This document shows positions 9,882-60,347 of a stretch of DNA of 64,000 bases, piece by piece; within the stretch, counting starts at the first letter, position 1; each line of letters opens with the position of its first letter. The position numbers and the translations under genes are program-made. The stretch comes from Ginglymostoma cirratum (Eukaryota), in the NCBI GenBank assembly GCA_024137785.1, contig JAHRHZ010000085.1, positions 3,451,770-3,515,769 on the forward strand, given 5' to 3'. The notes beneath the pieces were generated by a model, which saw nothing but the letters and a program-made list of their open reading frames with translations, did no database searches and was not told where the DNA came from.

Positions 9882-10188
9882 TTGCTTTGGGCATTTCAGC
9901 CAAGGTAAAACTGGATCATAAATGAATAACCGCGCAGAGAGGTTCATCAGTTGTCCTGCCTCTGTCGTTTCTCCTTCAAAATCAACCATTCAAATATTGT
10001 CGCTGACAGTTGGAGAGAAGGTAATAATACCTTTCTGCTGGAGGATAGCAGAAAGTTATTCACTGGAGGTGGAGAAGCAGCCTAACGTAATCTTTTGAAT
10101 GTGACTGTCCGGGAAAAATATTACTGTGTAGTCAAGTATCAACATTGAACGGTTGGGAAAGAAACTGCTGTGCAACTTATGGCATGTG
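9882..10188 (+). pseudogene. Copy A: IgV exon of a SIRP-like V-C1 receptor, disrupted
   Basis: Flanked by catag| and |gtatgt. Reads VALGISAKVKLDHK*ITAQRGSSVVL (frameshift) CRFSF..SWREGNNTFL..LLNVTVREKYYCVVKYQH*TVGKETAVQL. Aligns with 59652-59960. Confidence 0.88.
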
Positions 10189-10899
10189 GTATGTTTCGCC
10201 GCAGACAAACATGGTGTCTCAGCTGCTACGAAAAACGACGATGGTTAAAATTCATTTTCCGAAATATATGTATTTCACATGAATATTCAACTTCTTTGGA
10301 ATGAAATTGTCAACAATCTGAGAAACTTTTATGAACTGTCACAGTGTGAAGATTACCATTTGCACATCATTTGAAAATTGTATTGAATGTATCTATTGCA
10401 GAGTAAGTTACTACCAAACGTCAAAGCTACCCGTTTTCCTTTTCTAATCTCAGCATCGGGAAACAATTTGAAGAGATACAAATATTATCTGCGGGATTGT
10501 AGATTTTGAATATCCCGGTATCTCATTGAAAACATAATTCCTGTCACCATCATTTGGACTGCAGCTGTCGCAGCTTCTACAAACTAGAATCCAGTTCCAA
10601 ACTGGCTGTCATGAGAAGGATGCAAAATGACATCCCAAATATTTTTGTAATAATTAAGATGTATTTAATTTAAAAACCAACTTTGCTGAACTCGGAAATG
10701 GTGCATCAATTGCTTTGGGCGGAGGACGTGAAGTGCGGGTCACTGCATGATAAACGTAACATTTACTCCAAGCAAATAATGACGACTCATGCAAAAACCG
10801 TGCCCTGAAACTGCAGATGGTTTGTTCATTGAACCGTTGAAGCTTTGGAGCAGGATTGCAATGTTCCGATTTATCTGAATTCTATTATTTACAATTCAG

Positions 10900-11185
10900 C
10901 TTCACCAGCTCCCCTGAAAATTGTGACCAGTACCATTGGAAGATGCATCTTTCATTCTGTCGTGCAGGAATTCTGCCTTTTACCCAAAAGACTTTAATTT
11001 TACTTGGCACAAAAACAATACAAAAGTCTTGACATAATGAACAACAAATAAACACCATCAGACTTTGAGGTTGTCAGCACCTTAGAAGTGGCAGAGGCAG
11101 GTGAATGTGACACAGTTTACACTTGTCAAGTGCATCATTTTTCAAACCCATTTCCAGCAAAAGTCAGATACACTATTGCGAAAGA
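10900..11185 (+). pseudogene. Copy A: IgC1 exon, frameshifted, donor site apparently lost
   Basis: Begins ttcag|CT TCA CCA GCT CCC CTG AAA. Contains LSCRNSAFYPKDFNFTWHKN and EVVSTLEV..VYTCQVHH, interrupted by frameshifts and stops. Confidence 0.88.
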
Positions 11186-11329
11186 ATGCAGCCGGAATAT
11201 CTATTTGCTGCTGCGGTGTACCCTTATTTCGTTATTTATGTTCAGAATGTTAATGATGTTGAGAAAGTCAACATTTACATTCGTATGCATCTTTGATGCA
11301 GTTGTTTTCTTGCGAACAGTTCAATTGAG

Positions 11330-11615
11330 TTTTGGCTCTGAAGAAGGGTTACTGGATCTAAAACGTTAACTCTACTTTCTCTCAATGTGGAGATGCCAGA
11401 GCTGTACTAGGGTAGACAAAGTCAGAAGTCACACAACACCAGGTTATAGTCCAACAGGTCTATTTAAAATCACAAGTTTTCAGTTGACCAAGGAGCTGCG
11501 CTTTGAAAGCTGATATTTGAAATAAACCTGTTGGGCGAAAACCTGGTTTTGTGTGATTTCTGACAACTTTCACTCCACAAGCTTGCAGACTTGCTGAATT
11601 TTTCCAACAATATTT
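11330..11615. repeat. PLE terminal repeat interrupted by a fold-back element (about 11388-11568)
   Basis: Inverted arms gtcagaagtcacacaacaccagg...ccaacagg and cctgttgg...cctggttttgtgtgatttctgac. Confidence 0.65.
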
Positions 11616-12585
11616 TTATTCATTTGTGGGATGTGGGCATCGCTGGCTGGCCAGCACTTCTTGTGCTTCCCTAGTTGCCCTTGACAAGGTGGTGGTGAGC
11701 TGCCATCTTGAACTGCTGCAGTCCACCTGCTGTGGGTTTATCCACAATGCCTTTAGGGAGGGAATTCCAGGATTTTGAATGAGCATCAGTGAAGGAATGG
11801 TGATACATTTCCAAGTCAGGATGGTGATTGGCTTGGAGGGGAACTTGAAGGTGAAGGTGTTCCCATCAATCTGCTTCCCTTGTTCTTCTGGCTGGAAGTG
11901 GTCATGGGTTTGGGATGTGCCATCTGAGGATCTTTGGTGAATTTCTGCAGAGTATCTTGGAGCTCGTACACACTGCTTCTGCTGAGCGTCGGTGGTAGAG
12001 GAAGTGGGTGCTTGTGGATGTGGTGCCAATCAAGCGGGCTGCTTTGTCCTGGATGGTGACAAGCTTCTTGAGTGTTGTTGTGGCTGCACTCATCCAGGCA
12101 AGTGTGGAGTATTCCATCACACACCTACCTTGTGCCTTGTAGACTGTGGACAGGTTTTGAGGAGCCAGGAGCTGAGTTACTCACCACAGTATTCCGAGAT
12201 TCTGACTTGCTCTTGTAGCCAATGTATTTATGTGATGAGTCGAGTTGACTTTCTGGTCAATGGTAACCCCAGGGTGTTGATCGTTGGGGATTCAGTGATG
12301 GTAACACAGTTGAAATCCAAGGGGCGGTGGTTAGATTGTCTCTTATTTGTGATGGTCATTGCATGGTATTTGCGTTGCATGAATTTTACTTGCCACTCAG
12401 CCCAAGCCTCGATAATGTCCAGAACTTGCTGCGTTTGAACATGGACTACTTCAGTATCTGATGGGTTATGAATGGTGCTGTGCATTGTGCACTCATTGGC
12501 GAACATCCCCACTTCTGACTTTATGATGGAGGGAAGGGCTATGACGAATCAGCTGAAGATGGTTGGACCGAAGACACTACCGGGT
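11616..12585 (-). mobile_element. CR1-group LINE: RT C-terminus and 3' UTR
   Basis: Encodes FANECT (YADD-like), AWAEWQVKF..KYHAM and MEYSTLAW..IQDKAARLI. Same family as 36085, 41990 and 58655. Confidence 0.85.
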
Positions 12586-13999
12586 TAGATTGATTCAAAA
12601 AGTTAATTGTTGCATGGTTAATAAAAGAAAAACGAAGAGAAGTGTTTTTGAAACAATCTGGAGAATCTGCCAAAGTGGCAATGAAGGTGAGAAAAATGAA
12701 ACAAACTTGGTTATGAGCTGATAGATTCTTTAATGTGATTGTATGACCATAGTTATGTCTATTTTAGAGAAACTCAGGTGAGGCACAGGCAGCGATGTAG
12801 AGCAATGTTCCTCTGAAATTACAAAGTGAAACTTACAGCCATCATTATGATGCCTTTCAACTACTTGTTGTGAAATTCTCCAAAAGTCATCACCTAGATT
12901 CCCAAACTACATACCGATTTGTCTGTGGCAGCTAGGACAGCAAGCATGTCAAATGGTAAATGTAGTAAGTGATAGAATTGGTTAGTCAATTTCACAGCGA
13001 CCAGGCCAGGTATGTAATTTTACGTACTGCCACATCCAGTTGTGAGAGGTGTTAAACAATGAAACAACTTACTGGAGTAGGTGGCTCCACAAATATTCTC
13101 ACTCTTATTGATATAGGAATCCAACACATTTTCTGCAAAAGATAACGCTGAATCATTTCCAACAAAATTCAGCCAGAAGTGCAGAGTGGATGGGCTTACT
13201 GACCTCTTCAAAATGTCTAAAGCATCACTAATGCTAGTCGTCAGCTAATTCAATTCACTCTACATGATATGACTAAATGATGCAAAAGTTATTGGCCCTG
13301 ACATCAGTCCAGAAATAGTACTGAAGACATATACTCCAGATATGTCGGGGTCCCTTGACAAGCTGTTCAAGCACAGCAGCATTTTTAGATTCTACCAGGC
13401 AATGTCGAAAATTGAAACAAATGAAAACAGAAATTGCAAGAGAAACTCAGCAGGTCTGGCAGTTCTGTGGATAGAAAAACAGAGTTAACATTTCAAGTCT
13501 GATATGACTGATCTCGCAAGGAATCAAGGGCTATGGGGAGAGTGCGGGTATGTGGAGTTGAAATGCCCATCAGCCATGATTAAATGGCGGAGAGGACTCG
13601 GTGGGCCGAATGGCCTTACTTCCACTCCTATGTCTAATGGTCTTGTGGTCTCATGGACTGAAGAAGTCATACCAGATTCAAGCATTCTATCTGTTTCTCC
13701 CTCCAGTGTTCTCTGTGCTTTTTCCCTGCCATGAGGGAAGGTGAGTCCAGATGCAGAGGACGCTGTTTTAAAATTAGTGGTTGCATTTTTGGACAGAGAC
13801 GACGATTTTTATTTCCTCTGAGGAAAGGTCACAGGATAAATCCAACCCACCCCATTACTTCCCTATCAAGATCGTCTTATGCATCTGTAAAAAGTTGGAT
13901 GAAATCCATAGCGCTAACACTGGTCCTTCTATAACGAACTCAATGATACTCAGTTCAATTTCCACTCAGCTATTGACTTCATTAATGACTTGGATCATT

Positions 14000-14545: not shown

Positions 14546-14559
14546 GAAAAAATAATCAA

Positions 14560-17786: not shown

Positions 17787-17868
17787 ATGATCTGCCAGAT
17801 TTTCTTTGTCGCTATGTTTGTGAGTGAATCATTGTGGAACTCATGTTTGTTGTACATTTCATATCCAG
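17787..17868 (+). CDS. Copy B: leader exon
   Basis: MICQIFFVAMFVSESLWNSCLLYISYP G|gtacag, phase 1, about 300 nt before the V exon. Homologous to 60264-60347. Confidence 0.65.
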
Positions 17869-18171: not shown

Positions 18172-18474
18172 TTGTGTGTGCACTTTGATCAATGCTCCTC
18201 TGGATATTATGCAAACAAAGGCCCTGATAAATACAACAGCGATGCAACTTCTCCTTCGAACTCAACCTTTCAAACATAACGGTTTTCTGGTGGCGGGAAG
18301 GTCATAAGATGCTTCTGAAGGAAGACAGCAAAAAGCCCCTCAAAGTCATGAAACGAAGAGCCTACCTTCATCTCTTCAATGTGACTGTCCTGGATGCTGG
18401 AATATATTACTGTATAGCCACAAATCAGCACAGAACGGTCGATGACAAACACGCTGCGCAACTTGTTGTCTACG
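18172..18474 (+). pseudogene. Copy B: IgV exon, 5' part out of frame
   Basis: Flanked by aacag| and |gttagt. Open from 18243: CNFSFELNLSNITVFWWREG..AYLHLFNVTVLDAGIYYCIATNQHRTVDDKHAAQLVVY. The first 70 nt contain in-frame stops, explained by two compensating frameshifts. Confidence 0.9.
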
Positions 18475-19151: not shown

Positions 19152-19457
19152 CTTCACCAGCTCCTCGAAAACTTGTATCAATACGTTCTGAAGACACTTC
19201 ATCTGTTTCTTTCAAGCTGCAATGCAGGACATCTTGCTTTTATCCAGAAGACTATAACCTTACTTGGCACAGAAACGGTACACAAATCACCACTGGATTT
19301 AGAAATGTAAAACAGGCAAAAGGTGACGGACTTTATGAAGTGGTCAGCTCCGTGGATGTGCCAAATACACCCGAAAGTGACACAGTCTACATGTGTCAAC
19401 TGCATCACGTTTCGATCACATTTCCAGTTAATGCCAGCTACTCTGTTACAAAAGAAG
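19152..19457 (+). CDS. Copy B: IgC1 exon, intact
   Basis: Flanked by tgcag| and |gtaaga, 306 nt, phase 1/1. SPAPRKLV..LQCRTSCFYPEDYNLTWHRNG..DGLYEVVSSV..YMCQLHH..VTKE. Not shown in the ORF track. Confidence 0.92.
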
Positions 19458-20461: not shown

Positions 20462-21035
20462 ACTTTAAGGTCTGATTGAAATGATTACAAGAAGACATGC
20501 GCACTCATTGTATAGCTAATTTATTTGGTTCATACTTCGTATTTATATGAATTAAAAGTTGACCTTTTAAATTGTGGATATATATTAAAGTGAAATGGTT
20601 AGGTTAAACTACACAGATATATGATAAACATATGATTCTCATACTGCCTTTCGGACTCGGCCGGGACTTTGGCGATGACAGCAATTGGAACTCTATCTCA
20701 GATTCAACGGTGCTCATCTCACGAACTCCAGCCCAACGGGGAAGTCCAATGACTGGGACAAAGTCCCCAGTGTTTATACTGTTACGAATCAACTGTTACA
20801 TTGTATAGCGCCATTTCATAGTACTTACAGTATTTTTCCTGGTATTACACTGTACAGAAAACAAGCTGGAAAGAAATCCTCCAGATGGCTCCTTTTTAAC
20901 TGCACATTATTCTGTTTCCCACCCAGCCAAGGTCATGCAGTTACCTCCCAGCCAAAGAAGGCAGATTTTACTCGAAACCTGTCATTTTCCACTTGTCTTC
21001 AATTGCTGATTTTCATGCCCAATTAACCCTGAATG
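20462..21035 (-). repeat. 3' LTR of an endogenous retrovirus
   Basis: Diverged direct repeat of 25748-26272 (actgcctttc..actttggcgatg..aagtccaatga..caaagtcccc..ccaattaacc). Confidence 0.75.
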
Positions 21036-24000
21036 ATTAACACTGAATGGTTTGATTTGGTGACGTCATTTTTAAGCTCACACGACACAACATCCATTGA
21101 TGTTTTCAAACTAGATTATCAAAACATTACACAAGCATGTACATGCTGCTCAGTATCTACAATTTGGTTAGACACACAACGTCGTTTTCAGACCATTACA
21201 CAGGTATATAAAAACAAGAAACGAGCAATTAAAAATAATATAAACAATTGGATACTGTAACAGGTAGCGTACTGCTGAAGCTTTTGGTGTCCACCTGTCA
21301 AATACGACCCACTAATGATGCATGGTAAGGGTTCCTAAATTGCCTGCTTTGCGAATCAATTGATCATGGCTGTAAGTCATGGCAGTTTCTTGACGTAAGA
21401 AGCCCTGGTGTATTGTTGCCAAGTGAAAAATAATCTGTTGATGATTGGCAAGAAGAGCTTGCAATTTCTTAAATATCACATGCGGAGATACCCTACTCGA
21501 TACACAGTTATCGAATCTCATTCGTTGATTATATGGTGTTTATATCTCATTTCCTCACAGATAATACGTGTTTTGTCCCGAAGTAGGTTGGCAGATTGTT
21601 CCTCTCTCTTCTCATTGAGGTCGACAATATGAGGGCTGGAAACAAATTTGTGGTTCAGGCCAATTTCTTCGATGATTGTATCATGTTTCAAAGGTAGGGA
21701 AATATAAGGGGCACACCAAGCCTCCTGGCTATTGTTCCCGGTGGGTCTACTTGTTGTTGTCCAGCCGTTTCTCAGAAAACACAGGTGTCCGTGACATATC
21801 CAAGACAGATGAGGTAGGGTGATAGACTGATACCATATTTGCTGCTACGTTTTTTTTTTAAAGATAGCATGACATGCTGTGACAGCGTAATGACCAATTA
21901 ACATATCAGGCATAAATCTTAAGTTGGTAATGGTGACGTGAAATATTTGTTTCCAAGACAACAGGTGTCCGGATGGCAATGCATTGGTTACTTTGACATC
22001 AATGTGCTAAAATATACAGCTCGAGCAGATTACAATGTATTCAGTTAGCTTCAGCACTGAGATTTATCTGGGTGTAATACATTTCCGAAATGGTGCTATT
22101 AGCAAACTTCCACACTTTATCAGTCAAAAACCTATTTGCCAAATCTCGATGGGTAAATGGTTTGGCACACACAACAAATAGTTTAATAGTTTTCTTAGTT
22201 ACTTGCCCAGCTTTAGCAATTCTATTTTATATAGTCTCAATGCCCATGGAAGTTCACACAACTTTTCCCGCCTCTGCTCTACCGAGAATAGTGACGAGTA
22301 CATTTCTCCTGCATCGCCTCTGTAATGTTTATCGTGGGTATACCGAGAGGCAATGGGAAGGTTATTTATTTCAATTAGTTATCTCCACTGTCGCAGTTAA
22401 AACAATATTCGGTTTGGGGTGCAGGTGTCATACAAGTACTGAAGTTGGAGAAACTGTATAGAATTTAATGGAGCTGAATTCATGGCTCACCATAATAATC
22501 CCCAAGGCGGTTTGACACAGCAGCTGATCACCCAGCATATGAGCCACCGCCAGGCAACCTCTCTCTCAGGAGCTGTACCTCAAAGTCAGAGTAAGAAATC
22601 ACTTCAATGGTGAGGTTTAATTAGATTAAGTGAGGGACATGCCTTCTTCAATAACCTCACATCGCTATAACTCTTTGGGCCATTTCTTTTGCGGTCCGGG
22701 CTTGCAACTCACTGATTTTATTTCTCACATTGTCAGGAATCACACCCTCTCCCCGACCCATTTTATTCTCAGCAAAATAACACACCGGCTTGGTCCCTGG
22801 ATTTCTTTAGAATTGATTTCCCAGCCTTTATTCCGTAGGTCCTGAGTCAAAGTAACTATGTCTTCGGCTATTGCTTCCTCTGAAGGGCCATGTAGCAATA
22901 TATCATCAATATAAGGGGATGTTATATCGCTGGAGAGAGAGGACATCTCCAAATCCTGGCTATTAAACCATGGCAGAGAATGGGAATGTGCAAGTAGCCC
23001 CGCACAACCTGCAAATTGTCTGCTTTCTGCCCTCCTGTGTGAAAGCAAAGTGATTCTGTGAATTCCCATCAAGGAAATGAAAGTATTAGGGAGGTAGATT
23101 CTGGCAAACCATTCATCAGTTCCCAATGACAGTTGCTCCGGTAATGTTACAATCTCTGGGAGAGCCAATGCCAAAGATGGGGTCTGTTGGCTTAACCGTC
23201 AGTCATCTACCGTCATTCTCCAGTTACCACCTGGTTTCTGTACTGACCACACAAGGCAGATATACAGGAAGACGGCAGGTCATGCAACCTTTGCTGTCAC
23301 TGACCCTTCAATTGTGTCTGTGATCTCCTTGTGCCCTCAATACTGCTTACCGTTAACAATTCGTGAAGGAATGGAATGTATTGGAGTCGCAATTAGCTTT
23401 CTCAACTATTGCATTCATCCTTCATTCACCAAAACAAGACTTTCCAATTGGGGTACATATTTCTATCCCTTAACAACATCCATCCCGACAATATTTTTGT
23501 TTATACTGCATATTAACACAGATACCATCCGCGGTGGTCTATTCCCCTTTGCCAATCACACCAGTGCCCAAAGCGCCCATGGTTCTGTTCTCTCAAATCT
23601 ATTCATAATCATTTCAGTTCGCAGATTTCTGGACGGTATTGAGCAAGAGCACAACGTGCTGTTTGTTTCCATTTCTCCAATGAATTCTGCTAGAGATGTA
23701 TTGCCTCTGGACCCCTGAGTCGATTCCCACTATTGGTCACATCTCAGTGTGCCGGCAACCTTCCCAGTCCAGGGAATTACTCACTCTCCACATCTCCTCC
23801 AGCTCCTCTCATGTAGGGTACAGAAGGAACTCTGACATATCCGCCTTTTTTTCTGAGAAAGAGCATCTAAATCAGAATTGGGGTCTCACATCATGGGAGG
23901 GGTCGATGAGTTTTCAACCCCGGTTCTAAGGGGCAGTTCTGAGGAAGGGTCACTGGACCTGAAACGTTAACAAAAACAAAGTTGCTGGAAAAACTCAGCA

Positions 24001-25745
24001 GGTCTGGCAGCATCTGTGGAGGAGAAAACAGAGTTAACATTTCGGGTCCAGTGACCCTTCCTCAGAACTGGTGGTGTCTGGGAAACGTCAGTTTATATGG
24101 AGAAAATAGGGAGGTGTGTGGTGCAGGGAGTAAACGATAGGATAGAGCCCAAAGCTAGAGAAAGACAGTTGGACAGACAAAAGAGTTGCAAACGATCCGA
24201 CTGGGAGGGTGAATAGTTGTTAATGGGGACTGTTAGTGACTAACAACAGCGGGTGTGTAATGGCAGGCTATGTGGTAACAAGGCCTGGTGTGTGGGTTTG
24301 GGGGTCTGCAACATGGGAGAGTTAGGCCCTAAAAATTATTGAACTCAATATTGAGTCCAGAGGGCTGTATGGTCCCCAAGCGGAAAATGAGGCGTTGTTC
24401 CTCCAGCTTGCCGTGGGCTTCACTGTGTCAGTGTAGCAAGCCGGAGACAGAGATGTTGGCCAGGGAGCAAGATGGTTCATTGAAGTGGCAAGGAACAGGT
24501 AGTTCAGGGTCCTTTTTGCGAGCAGAACGTAATAGTTCCGCGAAGCAGACGCCAAGTCTCTGCTTCATTTCCCCAATGTAGAGGAGACTACATTGTGAGC
24601 AGCGAATGCTGGAGATTAGATTCTTGAAAGTGCAGGTGAAGTGTTGCTTCACCTGGTAGGTATGTTTGGGCCCTTGGATACTGTGGAGGGATGAGGTAAA
24701 AGCGCAGGTGTTGTACCTTCGCCAGTTCCAGGAGAAGGTGCCATAGGGCAGTGGGGAGGTTTTGGGGGTGAAGGAAGTGTGGACCAGGGTGTCCCAGAGG
24801 GAACGGTCCCTGCGGAAGGCGGACAAGGGAGGGGAAGGGAATATATGTCTGGTGGTGACATCTTGCTGTAGGTGCCGGAAATGGTGTCTGATGATCTTTT
24901 GGATGTGGATGCTAGTGGGATGGGAGGTGAGGATAAGGGGAACCCTATCGCTGTTGCAGGAGGGAAGATAAGGGGTGAGGGCAGAAGTGTAGGAGATGGG
25001 TTGGACTCGATTGGGGGTACAGTCGACAACGGGCCAAAATGTGAACTCTGTTTCCTCCTTCACAGACGATGCCAGGCCTGCTGAGCTTTTCCAGCAACTT
25101 TGTTTTTGTTGCAGGTTTTACAGTTTGACTGTCTGTTCTTACCAGCTGGGCAGTTAGACACACCAATGTTCTGCCCTTCTCACATTCCGACCACTTAATC
25201 TGCTCTGTCAACACCCTTTCTCCCCAAGCACTTCCCCCCCACCCCCACACCCACCCACCATTGTATAAATGCTGTCCCCTCTCGGCTTCACCAGCTCTGA
25301 TGAATGGTTGTCTTGACCCGAAACGTTAGCTTGCTCTCTCTCCATGGATGCTGCCAGACCTGCTGTGATTTCCATTACTTTTTGTTTTTGTTGCGGGCTG
25401 TACTAGTCTGCTTCTACTCGGCTTTATATGTTCTTTCCTGAGTGGTCGAAGCCGCCGTCGCCAGCCCAGCGGTCAATGTCCTGGTCACCTCCTTTAAATA
25501 TCGCACCTCCTGGGGCAGCAGACGGGAGGCTGCTCAGCAGGATCCACCCCATGTGGTTGACGCCCTTGGTTTGGAAGGGTCTAGGCCCGAAACGTCACCG
25601 TTCTTCTCCTCTGATGCTGCTTGGCCTGCTATGTTCATCCAGCTCTCCACCTTGTTATCTCAGATTCTTCAGCATCTGCAGTTCCTACTATCTCTATTAC
25701 AGGACCATCCCGGGACACAGAATGCTTCAACAGACAAAGTAACTG
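21035..25745 (-). mobile_element. ERV-L/class III-like endogenous retrovirus internal region (decayed gag-pro-pol) with nested PLEs
   Basis: ORF 22740-23174 has YIDDILL..LRNKGWEINSKEIQGPSRCVILLRIKW (ERV-L-type RT). A GWILLSSLRLL gag-like start lies near 25500-25550. Flanked by the LTR pair. Confidence 0.78.
23935..25390 (-). mobile_element. Penelope-like element 3' part (GIY-YIG endonuclease) with terminal repeats, nested in the ERV
   Basis: ORF 24428-25063 has RVPLILTSHP..CSQCSLLYIGEMKQRL. Same family as 40740-41930. Confidence 0.9.
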
Positions 25746-25747: not shown

Positions 25748-26272
25748 TCTTTAAATTCTGGTAAAAATGAGTACTAATGTACTTCAATATATATAATTTA
25801 TTGTGTTATAATACTTTACATATCTGAATTACAGCTGTTCGTTTACACTACAAATATATATATTAAAGCTAATTTGTGACGTTAACCTACTGAGATATAT
25901 ATTCAACATGTGAGCTTCACACTGCCTTTCCTCTCCCCGGGAACTTTGGCGATGGCGGTGCTTGAAGCTCTATTTCCGGTTCCACGGCACCTGTCTCACG
26001 CCCAACAGTGAAAGTCCAATGAGTGGGGCAAAGTCCCCGATATTACGCCTGCTCTGAATCTAATGTTACACGCTGATTCACTCTTTTGTCGTATTTTCAG
26101 CTCGTTCCCACGCAGCCCACTGGACAAAAACAGGCTGAGAACACTTTCAAAGAGGTTCCTTTTTAAGTCCACAATATTATGTGTCGCTCCAAGCCAAAAG
26201 AGGCTGTTTTGCAGAAATCTTGTACTTTTGCACTTGTCCTCAACTGCACATTGTCATGTCCAATTAACCTTA
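25748..26272 (-). repeat. 5' LTR of the endogenous retrovirus
   Basis: Direct repeat of 20462-21035, upstream of the gag-like sequence on the minus strand. Confidence 0.75.
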
Positions 26273-27923: not shown

Positions 27924-28037
27924 ATTTTGCCTCAAAAAGCATTGTTGCTGTTGTTGCTGGATCTGGCATTGGAGCACTTGTAATTCTATTATGCGCAGTG
28001 ATGATTGTGAAGTGTCTTCTCTTAATAATAACTAAAG
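27924..28037 (+). CDS. Copy B: transmembrane exon, intact
   Basis: Flanked by aatag| and |gtacga, 114 nt, phase 1/1. DFASKSIVAVVAGSGIGALVILLCAVMIVKCLLLIITK. Homologue of identical length at 55602-55715. Confidence 0.88.
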
Positions 28038-28251: not shown

Positions 28252-28519
28252 ATCTGAAGGCAGTCCGGTGAATTTCACTGACGAAGTAATATTTCCACAG
28301 CTTCAAGGTATAACTAAATATGTGCATTTGTGTTGAATATTTTGAGATACATTCTGAATCCAATTTGCCTGTTATACTGTGTGGCTATTTGAATTACATG
28401 GTATTTTGTTGTTTTACAGAAGAATGCAAACATCACATCTCTTTTGACAATTAATGCTGAATTTATTGTCACCAGTTTCAAAGGAAAAAGTAAGAAATCC
28501 TACTTAACACACAGAGGAG
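28252..28519 (+). pseudogene. Copy B: two candidate juxtamembrane exons (28252-28307 and 28420-28519), each with an in-frame stop
   Basis: Good AG/GT sites. Similar sequence occurs in copy C at about 55130-55410 (EECKH vs EEYKY). Confidence 0.5.
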
Positions 28520-32169: not shown

Positions 32170-32280
32170 AGAAAACAAGAAAGAGCTGAAGACAGATTAA
32201 CGTATGCTAATCTTGAACTGGTCCATTCAAAGGATGCTAAAAATCCTAAGCCACAGGATGAAAGAACAGTGTGTGCAGAG
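32170..32280 (+). CDS. Copy B: cytoplasmic ITIM exon
   Basis: Flanked by tccag| and |gtatct, 111 nt, phase 0. RKQERAEDRLTYANLELVHSKDAKNPKPQDERTVCAE. Confidence 0.88.
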
Positions 32281-32419: not shown

Positions 32420-32548
32420 ACCAAACATAGCATGAACAAATGCCAGCTGACTTATGTTGCTCTGAATGTGAATGGTCCTAGGTTAACAAAGAAACCAGAA
32501 AACACAGCTGCAACTCCATTGTGTGCAGCGGTGAAAGCCAGCAGCTAA
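32420..32548 (+). CDS. Copy B: terminal ITIM exon
   Basis: tacag|TKHSMNKCQLTYVALNVNGPRLTKKPENTAATPLCAAVKASS*. Confidence 0.88.
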   Translation, partial: TKHSMNKCQLTYVALNVNGPRLTKKPENTAATPLCAAVKASS

Positions 32549-40655: not shown

Positions 40656-40803
40656 ATATGTTCAGATGAGGCCAACTTCGACAAGGGAACCTACGAAAAC
40701 TCCATCGCATATGTTCAGATGAGGCCAACTTTGACAAGGGAGCCTCCGAAAACTCCGTTGCATATTTTCAGATGAGGCCAAATTTGACAACGGAGCCTCC
40801 GAA
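40656..40803 (+). repeat. 53-bp tandem repeat, about 2.8 copies
   Basis: Units start at 40656, 40709 and 40762 (atatgttcagatgaggccaa...). Confidence 0.9.
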
Positions 40804-41945
40804 GTGTCCACGTTCTTCCTCAACCAAGGATTCCCCAGCTCTGTTGTCGACAGGGCTCTCAATCGGGTCCGACACATCTCCTGCTCTTCTGTCCTCACCC
40901 CTTCTCTTCCTTCCCGCAACAGCGATAGGGTACCCCTTATCCTCACCTACCATCCCACCAGCATCCACATCCAGAAGATCATCAGACTCCATTTCCGCCA
41001 CCTCCAGCAAGATGCCACCACCAGACACATATTCCACCCAACCAGCTTCACTTGTCTGCCTTCTGCAGGGACCCTTCCTTCCAGGACACCCTGGTCCATA
41101 CTTCCTTCACCCCCAACTCCTCCCCACAGCCCTACGGTACCATCCCTTGTAACCTGCGAAGATGCAACAGCTGCGATTTTACCTCCTCCCTCTACAGTAT
41201 CCAAGGGCCCAAACGTACCTTCCAGGTGGAGCAGCACTTCACCTGCATTTCCAAGAATCCAGTCTACTGCATGCGCTGCTCACAATGTGATCTCCTCTAC
41301 ATTGGGGAAACGAAGTATCGACTTGGCGACCGCTTCGCAGAACATCTATGTTCTGATCGCAAAAAAGACACTGAACTACCTGTTGCCTGCCACTTCAATG
41401 CACCACCTTGCTCCCTGGTCAACATCTCTGTCTCCGGCTTCCTACAGTGTTCCAGTGAAGCCCAGCGCAAGCTGGAGGAACAACACCTCATTTTCCGCTT
41501 GTGGAACCTACAGCACTCCGGACTCAATATTGAGTTCAATAATTTTAGGGCCTAAACTCTCCCATGTCCCAGCCCCCAACCCCGCACACCAGGCCTTGTT
41601 ACCACACAGCCTGCCAATACACACCCCCTGTTGTTAGTCACGAACAGTCCTCATTAACATCTGTTCACCCTCCCAGTCTGATCGTTAGCAACTCCTTTGT
41701 CTGTCAAACTGTCTTTCTCTCTCTTTGGCTCCATCCTATTATTTACTCCCTACCCCACCCACCTCCCTATTTTCTGCATATAAACTGTCGTTTTCCCAGC
41801 CAACATCAGTTCTGAGGATGGGTCACTGGACCCGAAACTTTAACTCTGTTTTATCTTCCACAGATTCTGCCAGTCCTGCTGAGATTTTCCAGCAACTTTG
41901 TTTTTGTTCCCGATTTACAACATCCACAGTTCTTTTGGTTTTTAT
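40740..41945 (+). mobile_element. 5'-truncated Penelope-like element (GIY-YIG and 3' terminal repeat)
   Basis: ORF 41052-41555 has VYCMRCSQCDLLYIGETKYRLGDRFAEH..GLNIEF. Confidence 0.92.
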
Positions 41946-45591: not shown

Positions 45592-48500
45592 TGTAAAAAC
45601 CGAACTGACTTGAAATAGCAACTGAACTAATTAACTGTTCCAACATAGTCACTTCCCAGAAACACACCCCCTGGCAAAAAGGTAAATTCAAATCCAGATT
45701 CTTACAGACAGGCCGGAACAACATCCAGAGAGAGATTTCAGAGAAAGTCAGAAGAATCCTTGACTGAAGCCTGCAACACTTCTGGTACTCAGAACATCTT
45801 GTGACTGCTACGGCCAAAAAAAAAGAGAAAAAACCTGAACTGGGAGAACTGTTAGGTATCATTGTTAAACTGTTACTCCTTAGACTATTTTTCACCTCCA
45901 TCTTTGCAAACTCTTTTCCAAAAAACCAAAGACAAAATAACCTTTTCAAAGTGACAGCATTGTCACACCTCACCCTTAAAAATTATGAATAATCAATATA
46001 CAACGATGGTTTCAACTCAAGTTCCTTAGTCTTACTCTATTAGTACACTACAATATCCGTACATTACATTGAATCTAAGCAAGCAAACATTCACTCTCAC
46101 ATTTTATTTCAGTCTGTTCACTCCTGCCACCAAATGCCTCCGCCTTTCTTCATCCAAGATGTGATAACATGTCAGCAATTACGATTTCTCCTCCATCCAT
46201 GTGTGTAATTTTCAAATTGAATGGCTGAAATAATAAACTCCATCTAAACAGTCTGGAATTCTTGTCCTTAAATTGCTCCAAAAACTTTAATGGGTTCTGA
46301 TCAGTGTAGACAATTGTCTCAGACACATTACTGAAAATAGGAATGTTGAAATACCGTAACGCCAACAACAAGCTCAAGGTCTCTGTCTCAATCATGGAAT
46401 ATATATGTTGAAGAATATTCAGTTTCCTGGAGAAATACCTGATAGGTTATTCTATCTTATCATTATCTTCTTGGAGGAGTACAGTTTTGACACCCACATC
46501 ATTCACATCGACAGCCACCTTGAAAGGTGGCTAACAGTGGGGCAGTGGTTAACACAGCTTTCAGGCTATCAACGCCTTCTGACAGTCTGCCATCCCTGAA
46601 ATTTTCTGCACTTCCCCAATAAGTCAGCCAGTGAAGCAACCATACTGCTAAAATTTGAACTTCAAATAAAACCCATTCAATCCCAGGAATTGTAGTGCTG
46701 CTGTCTTCTACGATGTTATGGGAATCTCCTCAATAAACTTTATTTTCACATTCTGTGGGGCCATCTGTCCAAGTCCGATAACATCCCAGGAATGTGACTT
46801 GGGCTTTGGAAAATTCACTCTTAGCCGGATTTATCACCAAGCCTGCCTCCCAAAGTTGATCGAATAATCCTGATAAACGCTGTAAATATTCCTTCCACGT
46901 GTGACTAAGTATCACCAGGTCGTTGATGTTTCCTACACTACTGCATAATCCAGAAATGACTTTACTGGTTGGTCTTTGATATGTAGCTGGTGCATTTTTA
47001 ATACTAAATGTCATGACTTTAAATTGGTATAACACATTTGGTGGGATGAAAGCTGAAATCGTCTTCACTGTTTTGGATGAAGGTACCCTCCAGTATCCTC
47101 TGAGTAAGTCCAACATGGAAATATAAGTTGCTTGGCCCACCTTCTCTATACCGTCTTCCAAACTTGGAATCGGACATGAATCAGACTTTGTTATTGCATT
47201 GACTTTGCAATAGCCTACAGTGAGTCATTGGGCACTATCTGCTTTTGGCACCATTACTATGGGTGAGCTCCAGTCACTGCAACTCGCTTTGATTATGTTG
47301 TCTTGGAGCATGTGTTCATTTCTCTTTTTGAACCTCTGACAACTTTAGAGGGATATGTCTCTGAGAATGCTGCTTAATTGGAACAGCATTTCTTATATCT
47401 ACATAATGCATAATCAAATTAGTACTTCTCATCTTATTCCCACCTATCTCCACATGCAATAGTATTAATTCTGTCAGGTCATTTTGATTTCCCTCTGGAA
47501 AGTAACACAGTAATTTATCCCAGTTTCTGAGAACTTCCTCATTATTCAATTTAATTAGAGGAATGTCCAATTCAGAATTCTCTTAACTGGGTTCTTCATT
47601 TTGTGTTGTAACCAGTAAAACATGCTCCTTTTGCTTACATTCCCTACCAAAATACCCTTTTAGTATATTCACATGACATACTCTGAGATTTCTTTCTATC
47701 TGAAATTCTTATCAAATAATTCACTTCACTCAATCTCCCTTCGATTTGATAATGTCTGCTAAACCTTTCCTTTAAAGGTTCACCTGTCACTGGAAGGAGC
47801 ACTAACTCTTTATCTCTGTCAGCAAAGTTGTAAAATTTTGATTTTTTTTGTCTACTTTCTGCTTAATCATATGCTGTGCTACTTTTAAATGTTGTCTGGC
47901 CAACTCCCCTGCTCTATTTAATTATTCCCTAAATTTTTACACACAGTCCAAATATGTGATCTCTGAATTTTAACTCACCAATTTCTCCTGAGTAAATTTC
48001 CGTGATCCTCTCACCTCATGCCCAAAAACTAATTCCAATGGACTGAATTTGGTCGATTTGTTTGGTACATCCCTCTTTGCAAAAAGTACAAACAAAATTC
48101 TTTTTCTTTATCATTTGAGTAGTCTTGACTATAAGCTCTTAACATGACCTGTAAAGTTTTTTTTTTTGCCCAGCTATCTAATGCTCCCTGTGATTCATAA
48201 TAGTACGCAGTGGATTTGAAATGTTTTATTCCTAAGATATCCATAATTTCACTGAATAATGTTGATGTAAAATTTGACCCTTGATCTGATCATATCTCTG
48301 TGGGTAACACTTCAATAATCCCTTTAGCTGTGATATTGCGTAATGGAATGGCCTGTGGAAATCTGTGCACACATCCATTGTTGTTGACAAAATCTCATTC
48401 TTACTTTTTGTTTTAGATAGGGATCCTACTCCATCAATTAAGACTCCTGCGAAAGCTTCCGCAAATGCATGAATGGATATGAAAGGTGTTGGCTTTATTC

Positions 48501-51988: not shown

Positions 51989-52213
51989 TCAGGAAAACAA
52001 CAGCTTAAAATTGACAAGAAACATAAACATCTGTGTGATGCAATCTCGGCTTCTATCTTTTAAGCATATTTTCATTTGCCCAATTTTGCAGCTGCTTTTC
52101 ACTTCTGCATAGACTGGACTTTTTTCTTGGTGTCTGGGTTTGGATAATTTACTGCAACCATTGAATTTCAGAGCAAGGTAAGTCAGCCTGCTATCTGTCA
52201 TACTCTGTTTTGT
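51989..52213 (-). pseudogene. Copy C: terminal ITIM exon
   Basis: ttcag|TKQSMTDSRLTYLALKFNGCSKLSKPRHQEKSPVYAEVKSS... Homologue of 32420-32548 that reads further before stopping. Confidence 0.87.
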
Positions 52214-52356: not shown

Positions 52357-52467
52357 CCCTGCGTACCCTGTGATTTCTTACCGTTTTTTAGGCATTATGC
52401 CACCCTCAGAACCAACTGGATTCAGAGCAGCGTATGTCAGCTTATTCTCAGGCATCTCTTGTTTTCT
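52357..52467 (-). pseudogene. Copy C: ITIM exon with internal stop
   Basis: tctag|RKQEMPENKLTYAALNPVGSEGGIMPKKR*EITGYAG|gtaca, 111 nt as in copy B. TAA at 52378-52380. Confidence 0.87.
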
Positions 52468-53700: not shown

Positions 53701-55601
53701 AGTCTTTGTCCTGATTTTCTCAGGACACCCAAGAATGAAATGGACCTTTTTTTGCACCTCCAGGACAGAAGTGAGTCTTTTTTGCGCCACAAACTATTTT
53801 AAATGGCTTGACAGCCTTGGTGACAGGACCAGCATTTGGTGCCAACAACTGCTTACTATTAATGCCCCAGTAGTGAACCAGCTTTCTTGACATTGGCAGT
53901 CCAGATAATTTAGTTACATTGTAGTCAGAGAGGGAGGTTGGGTAAAATTCTTTTTCGAGAACAAATTCAGATCCATGAGTGAAACTGAGACAAGAATGCT
54001 GTTGAATTGATTTAAAGATTTGAACTGTTTTAAAAATGCATTTAAAGGTATTTAATCTGCTGGTCTGCATTGTATTCAATCGCAGTCAATACCCACATGT
54101 GCAATTCAATTGCACGCTCTGAAATCGGCAATAAAGATTTACTTTTTTACACGTTTTAACAAACTGTTCTCAGCTATTCATGAATAAGTCCTACTTGCTC
54201 CTTTTCATGTGCCACAGATAGGGAGCTTCCTCTCACATTGAACTGATATTCACTTTTTGAAAATTATAAACGAGAGAAATTTTCCTCACAATAGCTCATC
54301 GATTTCCGTTTCAAGGTAGCGTAACGCTGTTGCATGTTGCACGAGCAGAGTGGCATCCAACAGTAAAAGTTGTCTCAGGAAGCCAACATGCGCAAGCTCA
54401 GAGAAAGCAAGAACTGCAGATGCTGGAGTCAGAGACAACACGGTGCCGGGTGGAAAGAACATAGCAGGCAACCAGCATCAGAGGAGCAGGAAAGTTGACC
54501 TGAAACATCAACTTTCCTGCTCCTCTATTGCTGCCGGCCGACTGTGTTCCTCCAACTTGTGCAAGCTGTCTACACAATATATTCTGTTCTTTAGTACAGG
54601 TGCTCAGGAGAAGTCACTCATAATCACTGAAGTCAGACTGATGGATGAGGTAAGTTTGAACAGCTGAAAAAGGAAGGAGAGAACACAAACCTCTCCTTGC
54701 AACTCGAAATCTACCATCCAAAATAGTCATCATCCCAACGTAATCAAAATTGATTATAATATCTGTAATCAATATGGCAAAATTATTCAGCACACTGCCA
54801 CTTGTTAATAACCAAAGAAAAGAAAAATCAAAACTTTTTGTCAGCTTCGAACCTATGATTGACATTTGAAAGTAGCAGCGTAAGTTAACTGACGTCGCTT
54901 ACATATTTAAACACATCTTTGCCTGTTTAAAATAGTTGCAACTGTTTGTGAAACTTCCTACAACTTTCTTTTTCCTTTATTTTGGTTTTATTCAGCTGAA
55001 ATTGTGCTTCTGAGAGCTGACGAAATCTTCAAGACTTATCTTGACATGTTGGGAATATACATTTCTGTTCCTAGTTTGAATTGTTCAACGAGACTTCAAA
55101 ATAAAAATAGATAGAATATAGGAAATTTGCCTCACAACATTTTCACGTTGAGTTGGATTTATTGATTTAATTCTTTCCCCATCCTGAGAAATAAAAATGA
55201 CAGATTTCGCAAAAAAAATCAGTCGATACTTGTATTCCTCAGCAAACCAAAGAAACCAAAAGCAAGTCAACTAGTATTTGGCAATTACAAACAGGGTACA
55301 GTAGGACCAATAGTTTTGCAATGTAGCTCTAAATGTTACACACAGTTACATTGAATTTATGTTTTGAAGGTTGAAGCTATGGAAACTTCTATCAGCAATG
55401 AATTTCACCATCACAATTTTGATCGACACCGATACAACTTTGCAAACTGAAAACTTCAAATCTTCTTATTTGATAATTTAATGAGAAGCAAGGCATCTTT
55501 TTGAAAGAGCTTTCTCTTAAAATAGTTGCTTAAATTATACAGTTCAGAGTTCAGTTCCCAATTATGTTAATTTCAGTGAGAGATTTCATTCCTGTTCATA
55601 C

Positions 55602-55715
55602 CTTTGATGATAAAGAATACAAGACCCTTTGCGATTATCACGGCCAACATTAGAATTGCAAGAACACCAGCAGCACAACCAGCAGGCAAGGTAACACTGA
55701 TTTTAGAGGCAAAAT
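55602..55715 (-). pseudogene. Copy C: transmembrane exon with mutated acceptor (AG to AA)
   Basis: ttacaa|FASKISVTLPAGCAAGVLAILMLAVIIAKGLVFFIIK|gtatga. Confidence 0.85.
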
Positions 55716-57530: not shown

Positions 57531-57845
57531 TCAAGAATGAACATTGACCACACAGCCCTTTGACAGTCGTCAGTGTATGAGCAAAATAATTGTATGACCT
57601 ATGTTGAAGACTGTAATCCAGTTGTGGTAAAGTTATTTGTGATAACTGCGTATCAGCTCCAAACAGCAGGAAGAAAGTAAACTTTAATCCGTACAATAGG
57701 GCCTAATTTTAACTTTGACACAATCACATGCAAATAATTGTCTTTTCATATAATCACTTGCAAACTGTCATAACCACTTTCTACATATTTGCCATAACCT
57801 GTTGATACGTGTGCATTTAATGTACCACATGTTATGAAATGTTAC

Positions 57846-58157
57846 TTTTATTCGTAACAGTAACAGTATAACTGACATTTGCTGGAAATGAGCTTGAAAC
57901 GTGATATACGTGACAGGTGTAAACTGTCCCGCTCTCAACTGCGTCTCGCAACTCCAAGGTGCTGATGACTTCATAAAGATTCTCAGTTTTTGCCTGTTGT
58001 TCATTCCCAATTCCTGTCAATATGTTTGCACCATTTTTGTGCCAAGTAAGGTTGAAGGCTTTTGGGTAAAAGTCAAACGTCCTGCATTGGAGTCGGAGAG
58101 AAGCAGAAAACAGTTCTTCAGATGGCACAGAGACAATTTTCAGAGGAGATGGTGGAG
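57846..58157 (-). CDS. Copy C: IgC1 exon, intact
   Basis: Flanked by ttcag| and |gtaaca, 312 nt, phase 1/1. PPSPLKIVSV..LQCRTFDFYPKAFNLTWHKNG..LYEVISTL..YTCHVYH. Confidence 0.92.
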
Positions 58158-58654
58158 CTGAATGGTAAATAACAGAGGAGATAAATCGACTTTACATCTA
58201 CTGCAAAAATATGTTTTTTAGGTGAACAAAACAATTCATTTCAGCACGACAGTCACATTAATTGTTGCTGTGAACAGCACATGAAACAGGTACGACGTTA
58301 TAACATTAAAAAAATCCCCTCAAATCCTTTCAATATACCACCTACATTTTCGAAAAAAGAGTTTCAAGAATTTGTTTCCACTTAATAATAGAAACATGAT
58401 TGAATTGTCATACTGCACCTGTCTTTTGCCAAAAGGATGAGGAATTGGACCTGGATCCGAGGAATTTAACAAAATCAATCGAAGTGATGGGACTGAGACT
58501 TTGCTTTTTCTCGTGATGAATTAAACACTTCAAAATGCAGAATGTTACACATAATTTCAAGTATATTCATCCTGTCACTCCATATTCAACGACAAAAAAA
58601 AAAAAATTCGAAGTATTGCTGTCAATTTCCCTCCAAAAGCCAAATGTATAAAAC

Positions 58655-59460
58655 TGAAGCATCCTCCGACCAAGTACAGCAAGAACTGGACAACATCCGG
58701 GTTTGGGCTGAAAAATTGACAGGAACATGTAGGCCACATAAATGCCAGGCAAACACCATCTCCGATCAGAAACAATCTTAACATCCACCCCTTAATATTC
58801 AGTGGCATCACCGTCAGTGAATTCCCCACTACCTACATTTGGGGGGTTACCATTGATAAGAAACAGAACTGGGCGAGCCAGATAAATAGAACCGTAGGTC
58901 AGAGGCTGGGAATACTGCAGAGAATAACTCGACTGCTGACTCCCCAAAGTCTGTTCACCACCTACAAGGCACAAGTCAGGAGTGTGTTGGAATGCTCTCC
59001 ATTTGCCTGCACGCCTGCAGGTCCAAAAGCATTCAAGAAGTTTGACACCATCCAGTAAAAAGCTGCTCACTCGATTGGCAACACATTCAGTCACTCCATC
59101 ACAGACACTCAGCAGCGATATTGTGTAACTTTAAGATGCATTACAGAAATTCACCAAAAGCCCCGAGACAACACCAGCCTAACCTGCAAACACTAACATC
59201 TAAAAGGGAAAGGGCAGCAAGTATATGGGAACACCACTCAGTGCAAGTTTCTCCCAAGCTGACTTGGAAACATATCACTTTTCCTTCATTGTCACTGGGA
59301 CAAAATCCTGTCATTTCCTCCTAATGGCATTGTGAATCTATTTACAGCCCATGGACTGCCGCGGTTCAAGAAGGCAGCTCACCGCCCACCTTGGCAAGGG
59401 TCACTAGGCAGAGGCAATAAATGCTGGCCAGCATGTGATGCCCAAATCCCACAAGTGATT
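58655..59460 (+). mobile_element. CR1-group LINE 3' end in the V-C1 intron of copy C
   Basis: QQELDNIRVWA..PHKCQA motif and gcaataaatgctggcc tail. Confidence 0.85.
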
Positions 59461-59651
59461 CATTTTTAATACAGTGTAGATCTCAAACTTTGAGGTGTTA
59501 CTGATTCATCCATATTCTTGAACACTTTTCATTTTAAGAAAAAGTGCAAATAATTTACACGAAATGTCTGGATCTGATAAATTGATTTGTTTACTGTTGT
59601 TGATTGTTCTTAAGCAGCTCGGACTCCGTGTTTATCTGCGGTGACACTGAC

Positions 59652-59960
59652 CATATACAGTAAGTTGCACAGCAGCTTTCACAACTGTTCAATGCTGATA
59701 TTTGACTGCATAGTGATATGTTCCAGCGTCGTGGACAGTCACATTTAGAATTTTAAGGTTGGCTTCTCCTCTAATTACACGGAAGAACTTTTTGTTATTC
59801 TCCCGCAGAAAGGTATTATTACCTTCTCTCCACCAGTGAGCAACAACATTTGAATAGTCGAACTCGAAGGAAAAAGGACATTGCATGAGAACTGATGAAC
59901 CTCTCTGCACGGTTTTTCGTGTCAGGTCCAGATTCACTTTGGCCGAAATGCTAACAGCAA
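59652..59960 (-). pseudogene. Copy C: IgV exon with second Cys lost and internal TGA
   Basis: gacag|VAVSISAKV..GSSVLMQCPF..HWWREG..LKILNVTVHDAGTYHYAVKYQH*TVVKAAVQLTVY|gtcagt. Confidence 0.9.
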
Positions 59961-60263
59961 CTGTCAACCAAGGAAACACACTGAGATTAAACAAGAAGGA
60001 CGGGCTTCAGCACACAAATTACACCATTATTCCAGGCTATTGATGCAACAGCAATTTACCACATTTTACTCTTCAACTAATTCTTCCATTTTTAAACTAT
60101 TGTACTAATTGTATGTTTTTTTTTTCTGACAGACCCAGTGGCACCTGAGTTTTGGGAATAACTGACTTGAAAAAAAAGTAACCATTAATTTATCAAATCT
60201 AGCTGTAAGTTCACATTGTGTCTTGCCTATTAACAGTGAATGCATAGCAAAATAAATGTGTAC

Positions 60264-60347
60264 TTGCACACGAGATGCACGGCAGACAGACAGACAGCCC
60301 GCAGTGAATGATGCACAGACATATCAGCGGGTAAAGTTTGAGATCAT
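60264..60347 (-). pseudogene. Copy C: leader exon, frameshifted
   Basis: Aligns with 17787-17868. One nt shorter between the two ATGs and 4 nt longer within a (gtct)n run. Confidence 0.6.

What the first reader, a model, noticed from the sequence alone, without database searches (positions are those of the whole stretch)
9882..60347. Cluster of three non-rearranging V-C1 IgSF receptor genes with SIRPalpha-like four-tyrosine tails
Seen: the exons reconstruct as leader, IgV, a single IgC1, TM and two cytoplasmic exons. These carry LTYA(N/A)L..TxYAx and LTY(V/L)AL..PVYAEV, and the TM and first ITIM exons have identical lengths (114 and 111 nt) in copies B and C. Known: SIRPalpha has the same alternating ITIM/ITSM-like four-tyrosine layout but V-C1-C1. 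C1 domains are largely confined to antigen receptors, MHC, tapasin, SIRP and B7-type proteins. Inference: this is an expanded family of inhibitory V-C1 receptors in a cartilaginous fish, relevant to antigen-receptor and NK-receptor origins. Most of it is invisible in the ORF track.
Basis: partly seen in the sequence, partly recalled or inferred. Interest (0 to 1): 0.8.

Follow-up and report, generated by a model that had tools for sequence, protein, structure and literature searches.

The report
Three dead shark SIRP-like receptor genes
These are three broken copies of a shark immune 'brake' receptor gene; they make no working protein here, but they belong to a large, little-studied family of cartilaginous-fish receptors that may be early relatives of the mammalian 'don't eat me' receptor SIRP-alpha.

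Summary
The exons are real, but all three copies are pseudogenes. A is a V+C1 fragment with frameshifts and stops, and no TM or tail exon was found. B stops after 23 codons (V-exon frameshift), has a second stop in the linker, and Cys replaces 2 of its 4 tail tyrosines. C has a frameshifted leader, a V stop, a lost V cysteine, a dead TM acceptor, a +1 linker frameshift and a tail stop. A whale-shark gene model ends in the same shifted linker frame, which argues against sequencing error.

Uninterrupted four-tyrosine orthologue models exist in zebra shark (66% and 71% identity). They belong to a large V-C1 family. 20 of 21 named hits are chondrichthyan (11 genera), auto-named SIRPα-, SIRPβ1- or B7-H6-like; the other hit is rodent SIRPα. 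The family has ITIM-tailed and short-tailed TM-Arg forms, as paired receptors do. Tail spacing and exon plan resemble SIRPα; the ectodomain does not resolve SIRP from B7-H6 or IgL. Ten literature searches found no description of the family.

The parts
9882..10188 (+). Copy A V exon (307 nt); frameshift near 9962, stops at 9923, 10083 and 10146, and a 6-nt deletion removing the D-x-G motif
10900..11187 (+). Copy A C1 exon (288 nt against 306 in B); frameshifts, stop at 11049, donor GT lost; no downstream TM or tail exon found
17814..17868 (+). Copy B leader exon (55 nt, intact, phase 1)
   Evidence: (matches P0003 leader)
18172..18474 (+). Copy B V exon (303 nt); -1 and -8 deletions relative to C, with stops between them (first at 18186)
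19152..19457 (+). Copy B C1 exon (306 nt, open)
27924..28037 (+). Copy B TM exon (114 nt, open, AG/GT)
28476..28519 (+).
32170..32280 (+). Copy B tyrosine exon 1 (111 nt); ITIM LTYANL kept, second Tyr is Cys (32272)
32420..32548 (+). Copy B tyrosine exon 2 to stop; ITIM LTYVAL kept, fourth Tyr is Cys (32522)
60264..60322 (-). Copy C leader exon (59 nt against 55 in B); frameshift, spliced product ends after 22 aa
59652..59960 (-). Copy C V exon (309 nt); F-strand Cys is Tyr, TGA at 59691 (same codon as A's 10146)
57846..58157 (-). Copy C C1 exon (312 nt, open)
55602..55715 (-). Copy C TM exon (114 nt); splice acceptor reads AA, not AG
55136..55183 (-). Copy C linker exon (48 nt; frame needs 3n+2): +1 frameshift, same frame as the end of whale-shark model P0008
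52357..52467 (-). Copy C tyrosine exon 1 (111 nt); LTYAAL, in-frame TAA at 52380, then TGYAG
51989..52213 (-). Copy C tyrosine exon 2; LTYLAL and PVYAEV; reads about 30 codons past where P0002 ends

Best explanation
Three pseudogenes left by birth-and-death evolution of a carpet-shark (orectolobiform) branch of a cartilaginous-fish V-C1 receptor family that works like SIRPα. SHOWN: exon anatomy, the lesions, orthology of B and C to uninterrupted zebra-shark models, breadth of the family, and the presence of both ITIM-tailed and short-tailed TM-Arg forms. INFERRED from mammalian SIRPα and PD-1: an intact member is a type I membrane receptor. Its single V domain binds a cell-surface ligand (unknown) and the C1 domain acts as a stalk. 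Kinases phosphorylate two ITIM + TxYxx/PxYxx pairs (Tyr spacing 23/14/23), which dock tandem-SH2 phosphatases (SHP-1/SHP-2) and dampen leukocyte activation. TM-Arg relatives probably signal the opposite way through an ITAM adaptor. In this genome the three loci make no receptor: as spliced, B gives a 23-aa peptide and C a 22-aa peptide, and A lacks leader, TM and tail.
For: LESIONS. B as spliced stops at 18186 (32 aa from ATG 17787, so 23 aa from the homologous ATG 17814), with a second stop at 28505 and two Tyr>Cys changes. C has a +4 leader, a Cys>Tyr change, TGA 59691, an AA acceptor, a +1 linker and TAA 52380. A has four stops, frameshifts and a lost donor. Most are substitutions or non-homopolymer indels. 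Whale-shark model P0008 (119/137 = 87% to C) skips the second half of V and ends in the same shifted linker frame. ORTHOLOGY. B/P0001 217/330 and C/P0002 238/335 identical; B+P0001 100/99 and C+P0002 100/99 in a 53-row tree. A, B and C sit in an 8-row clade with only Stegostoma, Rhincodon and Hemiscyllium rows (98/96). End branches in V+C1: B 0.36 against P0001 0.15, A 0.56. PAST FUNCTION. B-vs-C dN/dS is 0.52 over four exons. FAMILY. 20 of 21 named profile hits are chondrichthyan. Of 52 aligned members, 20 have ITIM tails and 9 have short tails with a TM Arg; the two types are interleaved in the tree. Zebra-shark P0157 has the same V as P0002 and a frame-shifted last exon, so turnover is ongoing. 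SIGNALLING ANALOGY. SIRPα ITIMs recruit SHP-1/2 (PMC12324903, PMC2785349, passages). SHP-1/2 SH2 binding sites are conserved in sharks (PMC12151841, passages).
Against: Relative-rate tests show no clear speed-up in the window copies: 10 of 11 gave p>0.05, and the one significant test (p=0.016) pointed the other way. Decay is therefore recent, or both lineages evolve fast. The zebra-shark 'intact' proteins are gene models. P0001 and P0002 lack a proper signal peptide (P0002's N-terminus matches window repeat DNA), and P0001's third motif (PNYAAL) is not a consensus ITIM. The P0008 evidence comes from a protein model, not DNA. No reads or transcripts were seen. Ligand, cell type and phosphatase binding are untested.
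Confidence: 0.8

Rival explanations
1. The genes are intact in the animal and the lesions are assembly errors.
For: Exon lengths and most splice sites are preserved; protein rates are not significantly raised.
Against: B and C each carry several independent lesions, mostly substitutions (nonsense, splice AG, Cys, Tyr). B's 8-nt deletion is not a homopolymer slip. C's linker frameshift recurs in a whale-shark model.
Confidence: 0.04
2. B is only partly dead: skipping the V exon (leader and C1 are both phase 1) gives a C1-TM stub ending at the linker stop, with no ITIM, acting as a decoy.
For: B's leader, C1 and TM exons are open with normal splice sites.
Against: The ligand-binding V would be missing. 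The stop lies two junctions upstream of the last exon, which usually triggers nonsense-mediated decay (general knowledge). B's V+C1 branch is long. No transcript data.
Confidence: 0.08
3. On family affinity (not pseudogene status): the family is related to B7-H6/NCR3LG1, and its SIRPα-like tail is convergent.
For: B7-H6 is the top two-domain structural match to the P0004 model (Z 14.5, rmsd 3.2, 184 aligned, 27% id) against SIRPγ (Z 12.7, rmsd 5.5, 191). For P0001, B7-H6 scored 43.8 bits and SIRPα 39.2. Same V-C1 count. Some members are auto-named NCR3LG1-like.
Against: Several rows tie with B7-H6 within 1 Z. B7-H6 is not among the 60 listed PDB hits of the family profile, where scores sum over domains. 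The only non-shark hit of the profile was SIRPα, and it aligns through all four tyrosines.
Confidence: 0.2
4. On family affinity: an independent chondrichthyan V(J)-C1 lineage, no closer to SIRP than to IgL/TCR, which gained a SIRP-like tail by convergence on SHP binding.
For: Family profile V+C1 stretch scores: Ig light-chain-type stretches 71.9 and 71.3, SIRPα 66.8, UrIg2 57.9 bits. SIRPα's V scores only 15 bits on the family V profile. V Cys-Cys spacing is 54-60 (46 of 49 rows) against 66 in SIRPα. The V-only fold search is uninformative, with all top 50 within 1 Z. About two thirds of the tail score comes from the motifs in place.
Against: Tail spacing matches SIRPα beyond motif content: 0 of 1000 random-spacing controls and 15 of 1000 linker shuffles reach 32.4 bits. 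Exon plan equals mouse SIRPα minus one C1 exon. One member (P0023) is V-C1-C1.
Confidence: 0.3

Closest known systems
SIRPα / SIRP family (SHPS-1)
   Same: V-set plus true C1-set ectodomain; non-rearranging; four tail tyrosines in two pairs (intact orthologues 23/14/23 against rodent SIRPα 24/17/24). HH alignment of the family to rodent SIRPα runs through TM and all four Tyr (prob. 99.35). Top Atlas feature hits are SIRPα-like clusters (0.95). Clustered genes with inhibitory and probable activating forms.
   Different: One C1, not two; shorter V (Cys-Cys 56 against 66); J-like GxG lost in this branch. Putative activating forms carry Arg near the start of the TM, whereas SIRPβ1 uses Lys/DAP12 (recalled). 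CD47 binding unknown. The window copies are pseudogenes.
B7-H6 / NCR3LG1
   Same: V-C1 two-domain rod; best structural match; automatic names of some members.
   Different: B7-H6 is a ligand for NKp30 (PDB titles). The family carries a repeated ITIM/TxYxx receptor tail. About 25-27% identity only.
UrIg / UrIg2 (shark non-rearranging VJ-C1 genes; PMC12227049, PMC10751288)
   Same: Elasmobranch, non-rearranging V with C1; 57.9-bit V-C1 stretch.
   Different: UrIg2 has several C domains and forms antibody-like homodimers linked to the antigen-receptor complex; this family has one C1, a TM and signalling tails.
PRARP, NITR, NKp30 (non-rearranging joined-VJ receptors)
   Same: Listed with SIRP as joined-VJ IgSF genes (PMC11599192 passage); distant family members keep GxGT.
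   Different: Not compared by sequence here. From recall, NKp30 is V-only and NITRs are V or V-I, without C1.

Membership tests
Functional receptor gene (window copies A, B, C) | Open spliced frame from leader to tail | tested here: not met
   B stops at 18186, C after 22 aa, A lacks leader/TM/tail
C1-set domain | (F/Y)(F/Y/H)P in BC loop, 13 residues from B-Cys to C-Trp, xVxH after F-Cys (criteria in PMC2785349) | tested here: met
   A, B and C show FYP and 13 residues; xVxH in A and C, xLxH in B; 60 of 60 parsed family rows (64 given) have 13; Pfam C1-set
SIRP family | V domain followed by two C1 domains | tested here: not met
   One C1 exon per copy; only P0023 among the 23 proteins inspected is V-C1-C1 with family-level scores
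SIRP family | Four-tyrosine inhibitory tail (SIRPα type) | tested here: met
   Met by orthologues P0001/P0002 and other members; not by the window copies (B two Tyr, C behind stops, A none)
SIRP family | J-like GxG motif in V strand G | tested here: not met
   Absent in A, B, C, P0001, P0002, P0157; by eye present in 4 of 14 near relatives; 36 of 43 parsed distant members
SIRP family | Exon plan leader/V/C1/C1/TM/three tail exons | tested here: inconclusive
   B and C have 7 exons, one C1 fewer than the 8 of mouse SIRPα (PMC12324903: exons 3-4 encode C1). Assigning exon 5 to TM and 6-8 to the tail is my inference; intron positions were not compared
SIRP family | Ectodomain groups with SIRPs rather than Ig/TCR/B7 | tested here: inconclusive
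   only one SIRP and no B7-H6, Ig or tapasin reference was available for trees (long outgroup branch)
SIRP family | Synteny with tetrapod SIRP clusters | not testable with these tools
   117 of 117 ORFs of at least 90 aa scanned: only Ig exons and retroelement domains hit Pfam; no eukaryotic genome collection available
SIRP family | CD47 binding | not testable with these tools
B7-H6 / NCR3LG1 | V-C1 ectodomain | tested here: met
B7-H6 / NCR3LG1 | Orthology and NKp30 binding | not testable with these tools
   No reference sequence or synteny available
Rearranging Ig/TCR loci | V split from J, with RSS | tested here: not met
   V exons are complete to a GT donor; no good heptamer/nonamer
Paired receptor family | Related ectodomains with ITIM-tailed and charged-TM forms | tested here: met
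   Sequence level only: 20 ITIM, 9 TM-Arg, 11 short/other, 10 no TM called, 2 unparsed, of 52; interleaved in tree; adaptor binding untested

The most novel reading that the evidence does not exclude
These pseudogenes mark the cartilaginous-fish SIRP family: a large V-C1 paired-receptor system, from chimaera to rays, with four-tyrosine inhibitory and TM-Arg activating members. This would place the SIRP lineage in the last common ancestor of jawed vertebrates, with a one-C1 form and a short V, beside UrIg as a living non-rearranging V(J)-C1 relic.
Probability: 0.45. Interest if true: 0.7.

Novelty: new variant of a known kind. Interest (0 to 1): 0.42.

Why it matters
The three loci matter little in themselves: dead copies are expected in fast-turnover receptor clusters. 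The family behind them matters more. [quoted passage not shown] A structural paper argues that a primitive antigen receptor had V and C1 domains on myeloid cells (PMC2785349, passage). A chondrichthyan-wide V-C1 ITIM/TM-Arg family makes that question testable by synteny, trees and CD47 binding, and offers candidates for shark myeloid or NK inhibitory receptors. The intact orthologues named here (zebra shark, horn shark, sevengill, elephant shark) are the ones to study, not these copies.

Tried and rejected
1. TM-like text right after A's C1 exon aligned with P0003's TM. Rejected: the DNA there continues along the alignment with B past B's donor, so it is read-through intron.
2. A's leader, TM, linker and tail exons: 9 local DNA searches, none above the shuffled maximum.
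3. A DNA search for C's linker with B's exon failed (43.5 against shuffled maximum 61). The exon was found by protein similarity and splice sites instead.
4. LTYAAT at 54888 matched no tail profile and was treated as chance.
5. Relative-rate tests for relaxed selection were mostly non-significant.
6. V-only fold searches gave no discrimination, and SIRP or NKp30 V domains were not among the rows listed. This is not evidence against kinship.
7. Single-sequence PDB searches were dominated by antibodies and titin.
8. Rfam: 0 matches.
9. Synteny: no marker gene in the window.
10. Cluster membership of P0001 could not be looked up.
11. Literature: ten searches listed no paper describing this family. 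The elephant-shark genome supplement (1 file) had 0 hits for SIRP, ITIM or B7H6 terms. Flajnik 2012 and Ohta 2019 were not held. These, and Dornburg & Yoder 2022 and van Beek 2005 (seen only as reference-list entries), may already mention the family.
12. No complex prediction was run, as no ligand sequence was available.
Full report
OBSERVATION. Self-comparison and exon searches show three paralogous V exons and three C1 exons: A (+, 9.9-11.2 kb), B (+, 17.8-32.5 kb) and C (-, 60.3-52.0 kb); B and C face tail to tail. A six-frame scan with family profiles found no further copy. The C1 exons are true C1-set by Pfam and by the motif and spacing criteria of PMC2785349 (passages). TM (114 nt) and first tyrosine exons (111 nt) are equal in B and C, as stated. 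The TM exon ends in phase 1 and the tyrosine exon starts in phase 0, so another exon is needed. It lies at 28476-28519 in B and 55183-55136 in C. The plan is leader, V, C1, TM, linker, Tyr exon 1, Tyr exon 2.

ALL THREE COPIES ARE BROKEN. A: stops at 9923, 10083, 10146 and 11049, frameshifts in both exons, lost C1 donor, and no leader, TM or tail above shuffled controls in 9 searches. B: -1 and -8 deletions in V, with stops between them. Spliced as it stands it ends at 18186, 23 residues from the homologous ATG. A second stop sits in the linker (28505), and tail tyrosines 2 and 4 are Cys. C: leader +4 nt (22-aa product), second V Cys lost, TGA at 59691, TM acceptor AA, linker +1, TAA at 52380. 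Against assembly error, most lesions are substitutions, and whale-shark model P0008 (87% to C over 137 columns; named) skips half of V and ends in C's shifted linker frame. That is inferred from a protein model. Against long decay, 10 of 11 relative-rate tests were non-significant and the other pointed the opposite way. B's V+C1 branch is nevertheless 0.36 against 0.15 for its orthologue. B-vs-C dN/dS of 0.52 records earlier constraint.

RELATIVES. B's C1 exon found one protein among 105 candidates: zebra-shark LOC125459911 (P0001, 75%). P0001 found P0002 (zebra shark, SIRPα-like by automatic name) and P0003 (Heptranchias, NCR3LG1-like). B is 66% identical to P0001 and C 71% to P0002; both pairs have 100/99 support. 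Both models are uninterrupted V-C1-TM with four tyrosines, but neither has a proper leader, so they are not proven functional. A representative search gave 1194 hits at E<=0.001, many of them multi-Ig repeat proteins. 73 of the 153 stored proteins were 530 aa or shorter, and I aligned 52 (A1). The A1 profile returned 21 proteins at E<=1e-20 among 8000 scored candidates: 20 chondrichthyan (11 genera, Callorhinchus to Mobula) and one rodent SIRPα. That search is word-seeded and capped, so it does not prove absence from bony vertebrates. In a 30-row tree, A, B and C fall in a clade with only carpet-shark rows (98/96), sister to two Heterodontus genes. The source is therefore probably a carpet shark (inference). 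Of the 52 A1 rows, 20 have ITIM tails, 9 short tails with a TM Arg (one call, P0101, is doubtful), 11 short or other, 10 no TM called and 2 unparsed. The types interleave in the tree. Named TM-Arg forms are seen by eye in Heptranchias, Scyliorhinus, Pristis, Hemitrygon and Mobula. Turnover is visible elsewhere: P0157 duplicates P0002's V with a shifted last exon, and P0155 doubles the tail to eight motif tyrosines.

HOW IT WORKS. For intact members the likeliest mechanism is that of SIRPα: ligand binding by the V domain, phosphorylation of two tyrosine pairs, recruitment of SHP-1/SHP-2 and inhibition (PMC12324903 and PMC2785349, passages, for SIRPα; PMC12151841, passages, for conserved SHP sites in sharks). 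TM-Arg forms would pair with an ITAM adaptor (recalled from NKp30/LILRA-type receptors). All of this is inferred; nothing was shown for ligand, cell type or signalling. For the window loci the mechanism is loss: duplication, then accumulation of stops, frameshifts and splice mutations, amid retroelement insertions.

COMPARISON. For SIRP: the only non-shark profile hit; HH alignment through TM and all four tyrosines; spacing 23/14/23 against 24/17/24; tail score 32.4 bits, reached by 0 of 1000 full shuffles, 0 of 1000 random-spacing controls and 15 of 1000 linker shuffles; top Atlas feature hits; seven exons against eight in mouse SIRPα. Against or neutral: one C1; SIRPα's V scores 15 bits on the family V profile and its C1s 36 and 50, like unrelated C1s; Ig light-chain-type stretches outscore SIRPα (71.9, 71.3 against 66.8); the AlphaFold model of P0004 (mean pLDDT 76) matches B7-H6 best (Z 14.5, rmsd 3.2, 184 aligned; SIRPγ Z 12.7, rmsd 5.5, 191); the Atlas search with tail-less P0003 ties tapasin-like, NCR3LG1 and IgL clusters; the V is short (Cys-Cys 54-60) and its fold search does not discriminate. 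So it works like SIRPα, while membership of SIRP is unresolved, with one defining feature (two C1) not met. It is not a rearranging locus. This branch has lost the J-like GxGT, which weakens it as an antigen-receptor precursor compared with UrIg/UrIg2 (PMC12227049, PMC10751288, passages).

LITERATURE SEEN. Passages only: PMC10751288, PMC12227049, PMC11599192, PMC7916673, PMC12324903, PMC3716694, PMC2785349, PMC12151841, PMC9652883, bioRxiv 10.1101/2021.09.28.462165 (79). Supplement term search only: PMC3964593. Other papers were seen as search listings. Ten searches found no description of the family, but subscription papers on shark B7-H6, VJ-C1 genes and SIRP evolution were not available, so 'undescribed' is provisional.

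VERDICT. Observation partly confirmed; the loci are pseudogenes (0.8). The family is real, broad and only auto-annotated as far as I could see: a new variant of a known kind. Interest 0.42, rising to 0.7 if synteny shows it is the chondrichthyan SIRP family (probability 0.45).

Noticed in passing
window 10146 (+) and 59691 (-): A and C carry TGA at the same V codon (Arg in P0007 and B). Either shared descent, gene conversion or independent CpG decay; A's V is closer to C's (76% nt) than to B's (69%).
   Followed up: partly
window 20578-20930 and 25856-26197 (+): A 350-nt direct repeat (68%) inside B's C1-TM intron, with no Pfam or Rfam match; nature unknown.
   Followed up: partly
window 1564-1775 and 3565-3657 (-): The first ~108 residues of NCBI model P0002 match these stretches, far from any Ig exon, so its N-terminus is probably repeat-derived mis-annotation.
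   Followed up: partly
window 201-1306 (-), 40929-41555 (+), 46150-47224 (-): Retroelement remnants: LINE endonuclease with a GDSL-type ORF1, a GIY-YIG domain (Penelope-like by my recall), and RT/RNase H of an LTR element.
   Followed up: no
window 23969-25030 and 40843-41908: 1.07-kb inverted repeat at 87%, probably two copies of one retroelement; a 53-nt tandem repeat (2.8 copies) lies at 40656-40803.
   Followed up: no
family V domains (alignment A2): Short V: Cys-Cys 54-60 residues in 46 of 49 rows, and no C'' strand in the models, which recalls VNAR.
   Followed up: partly
P0023, P0155, P0154: P0023 is V-C1-C1 with a tyrosine tail (SIRP-like count; could be a model artefact). P0155 (Heterodontus) has a doubled eight-motif tail. 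P0154 (Hemiscyllium) fuses two family genes from different subfamilies, suggesting they are neighbours.
   Followed up: partly
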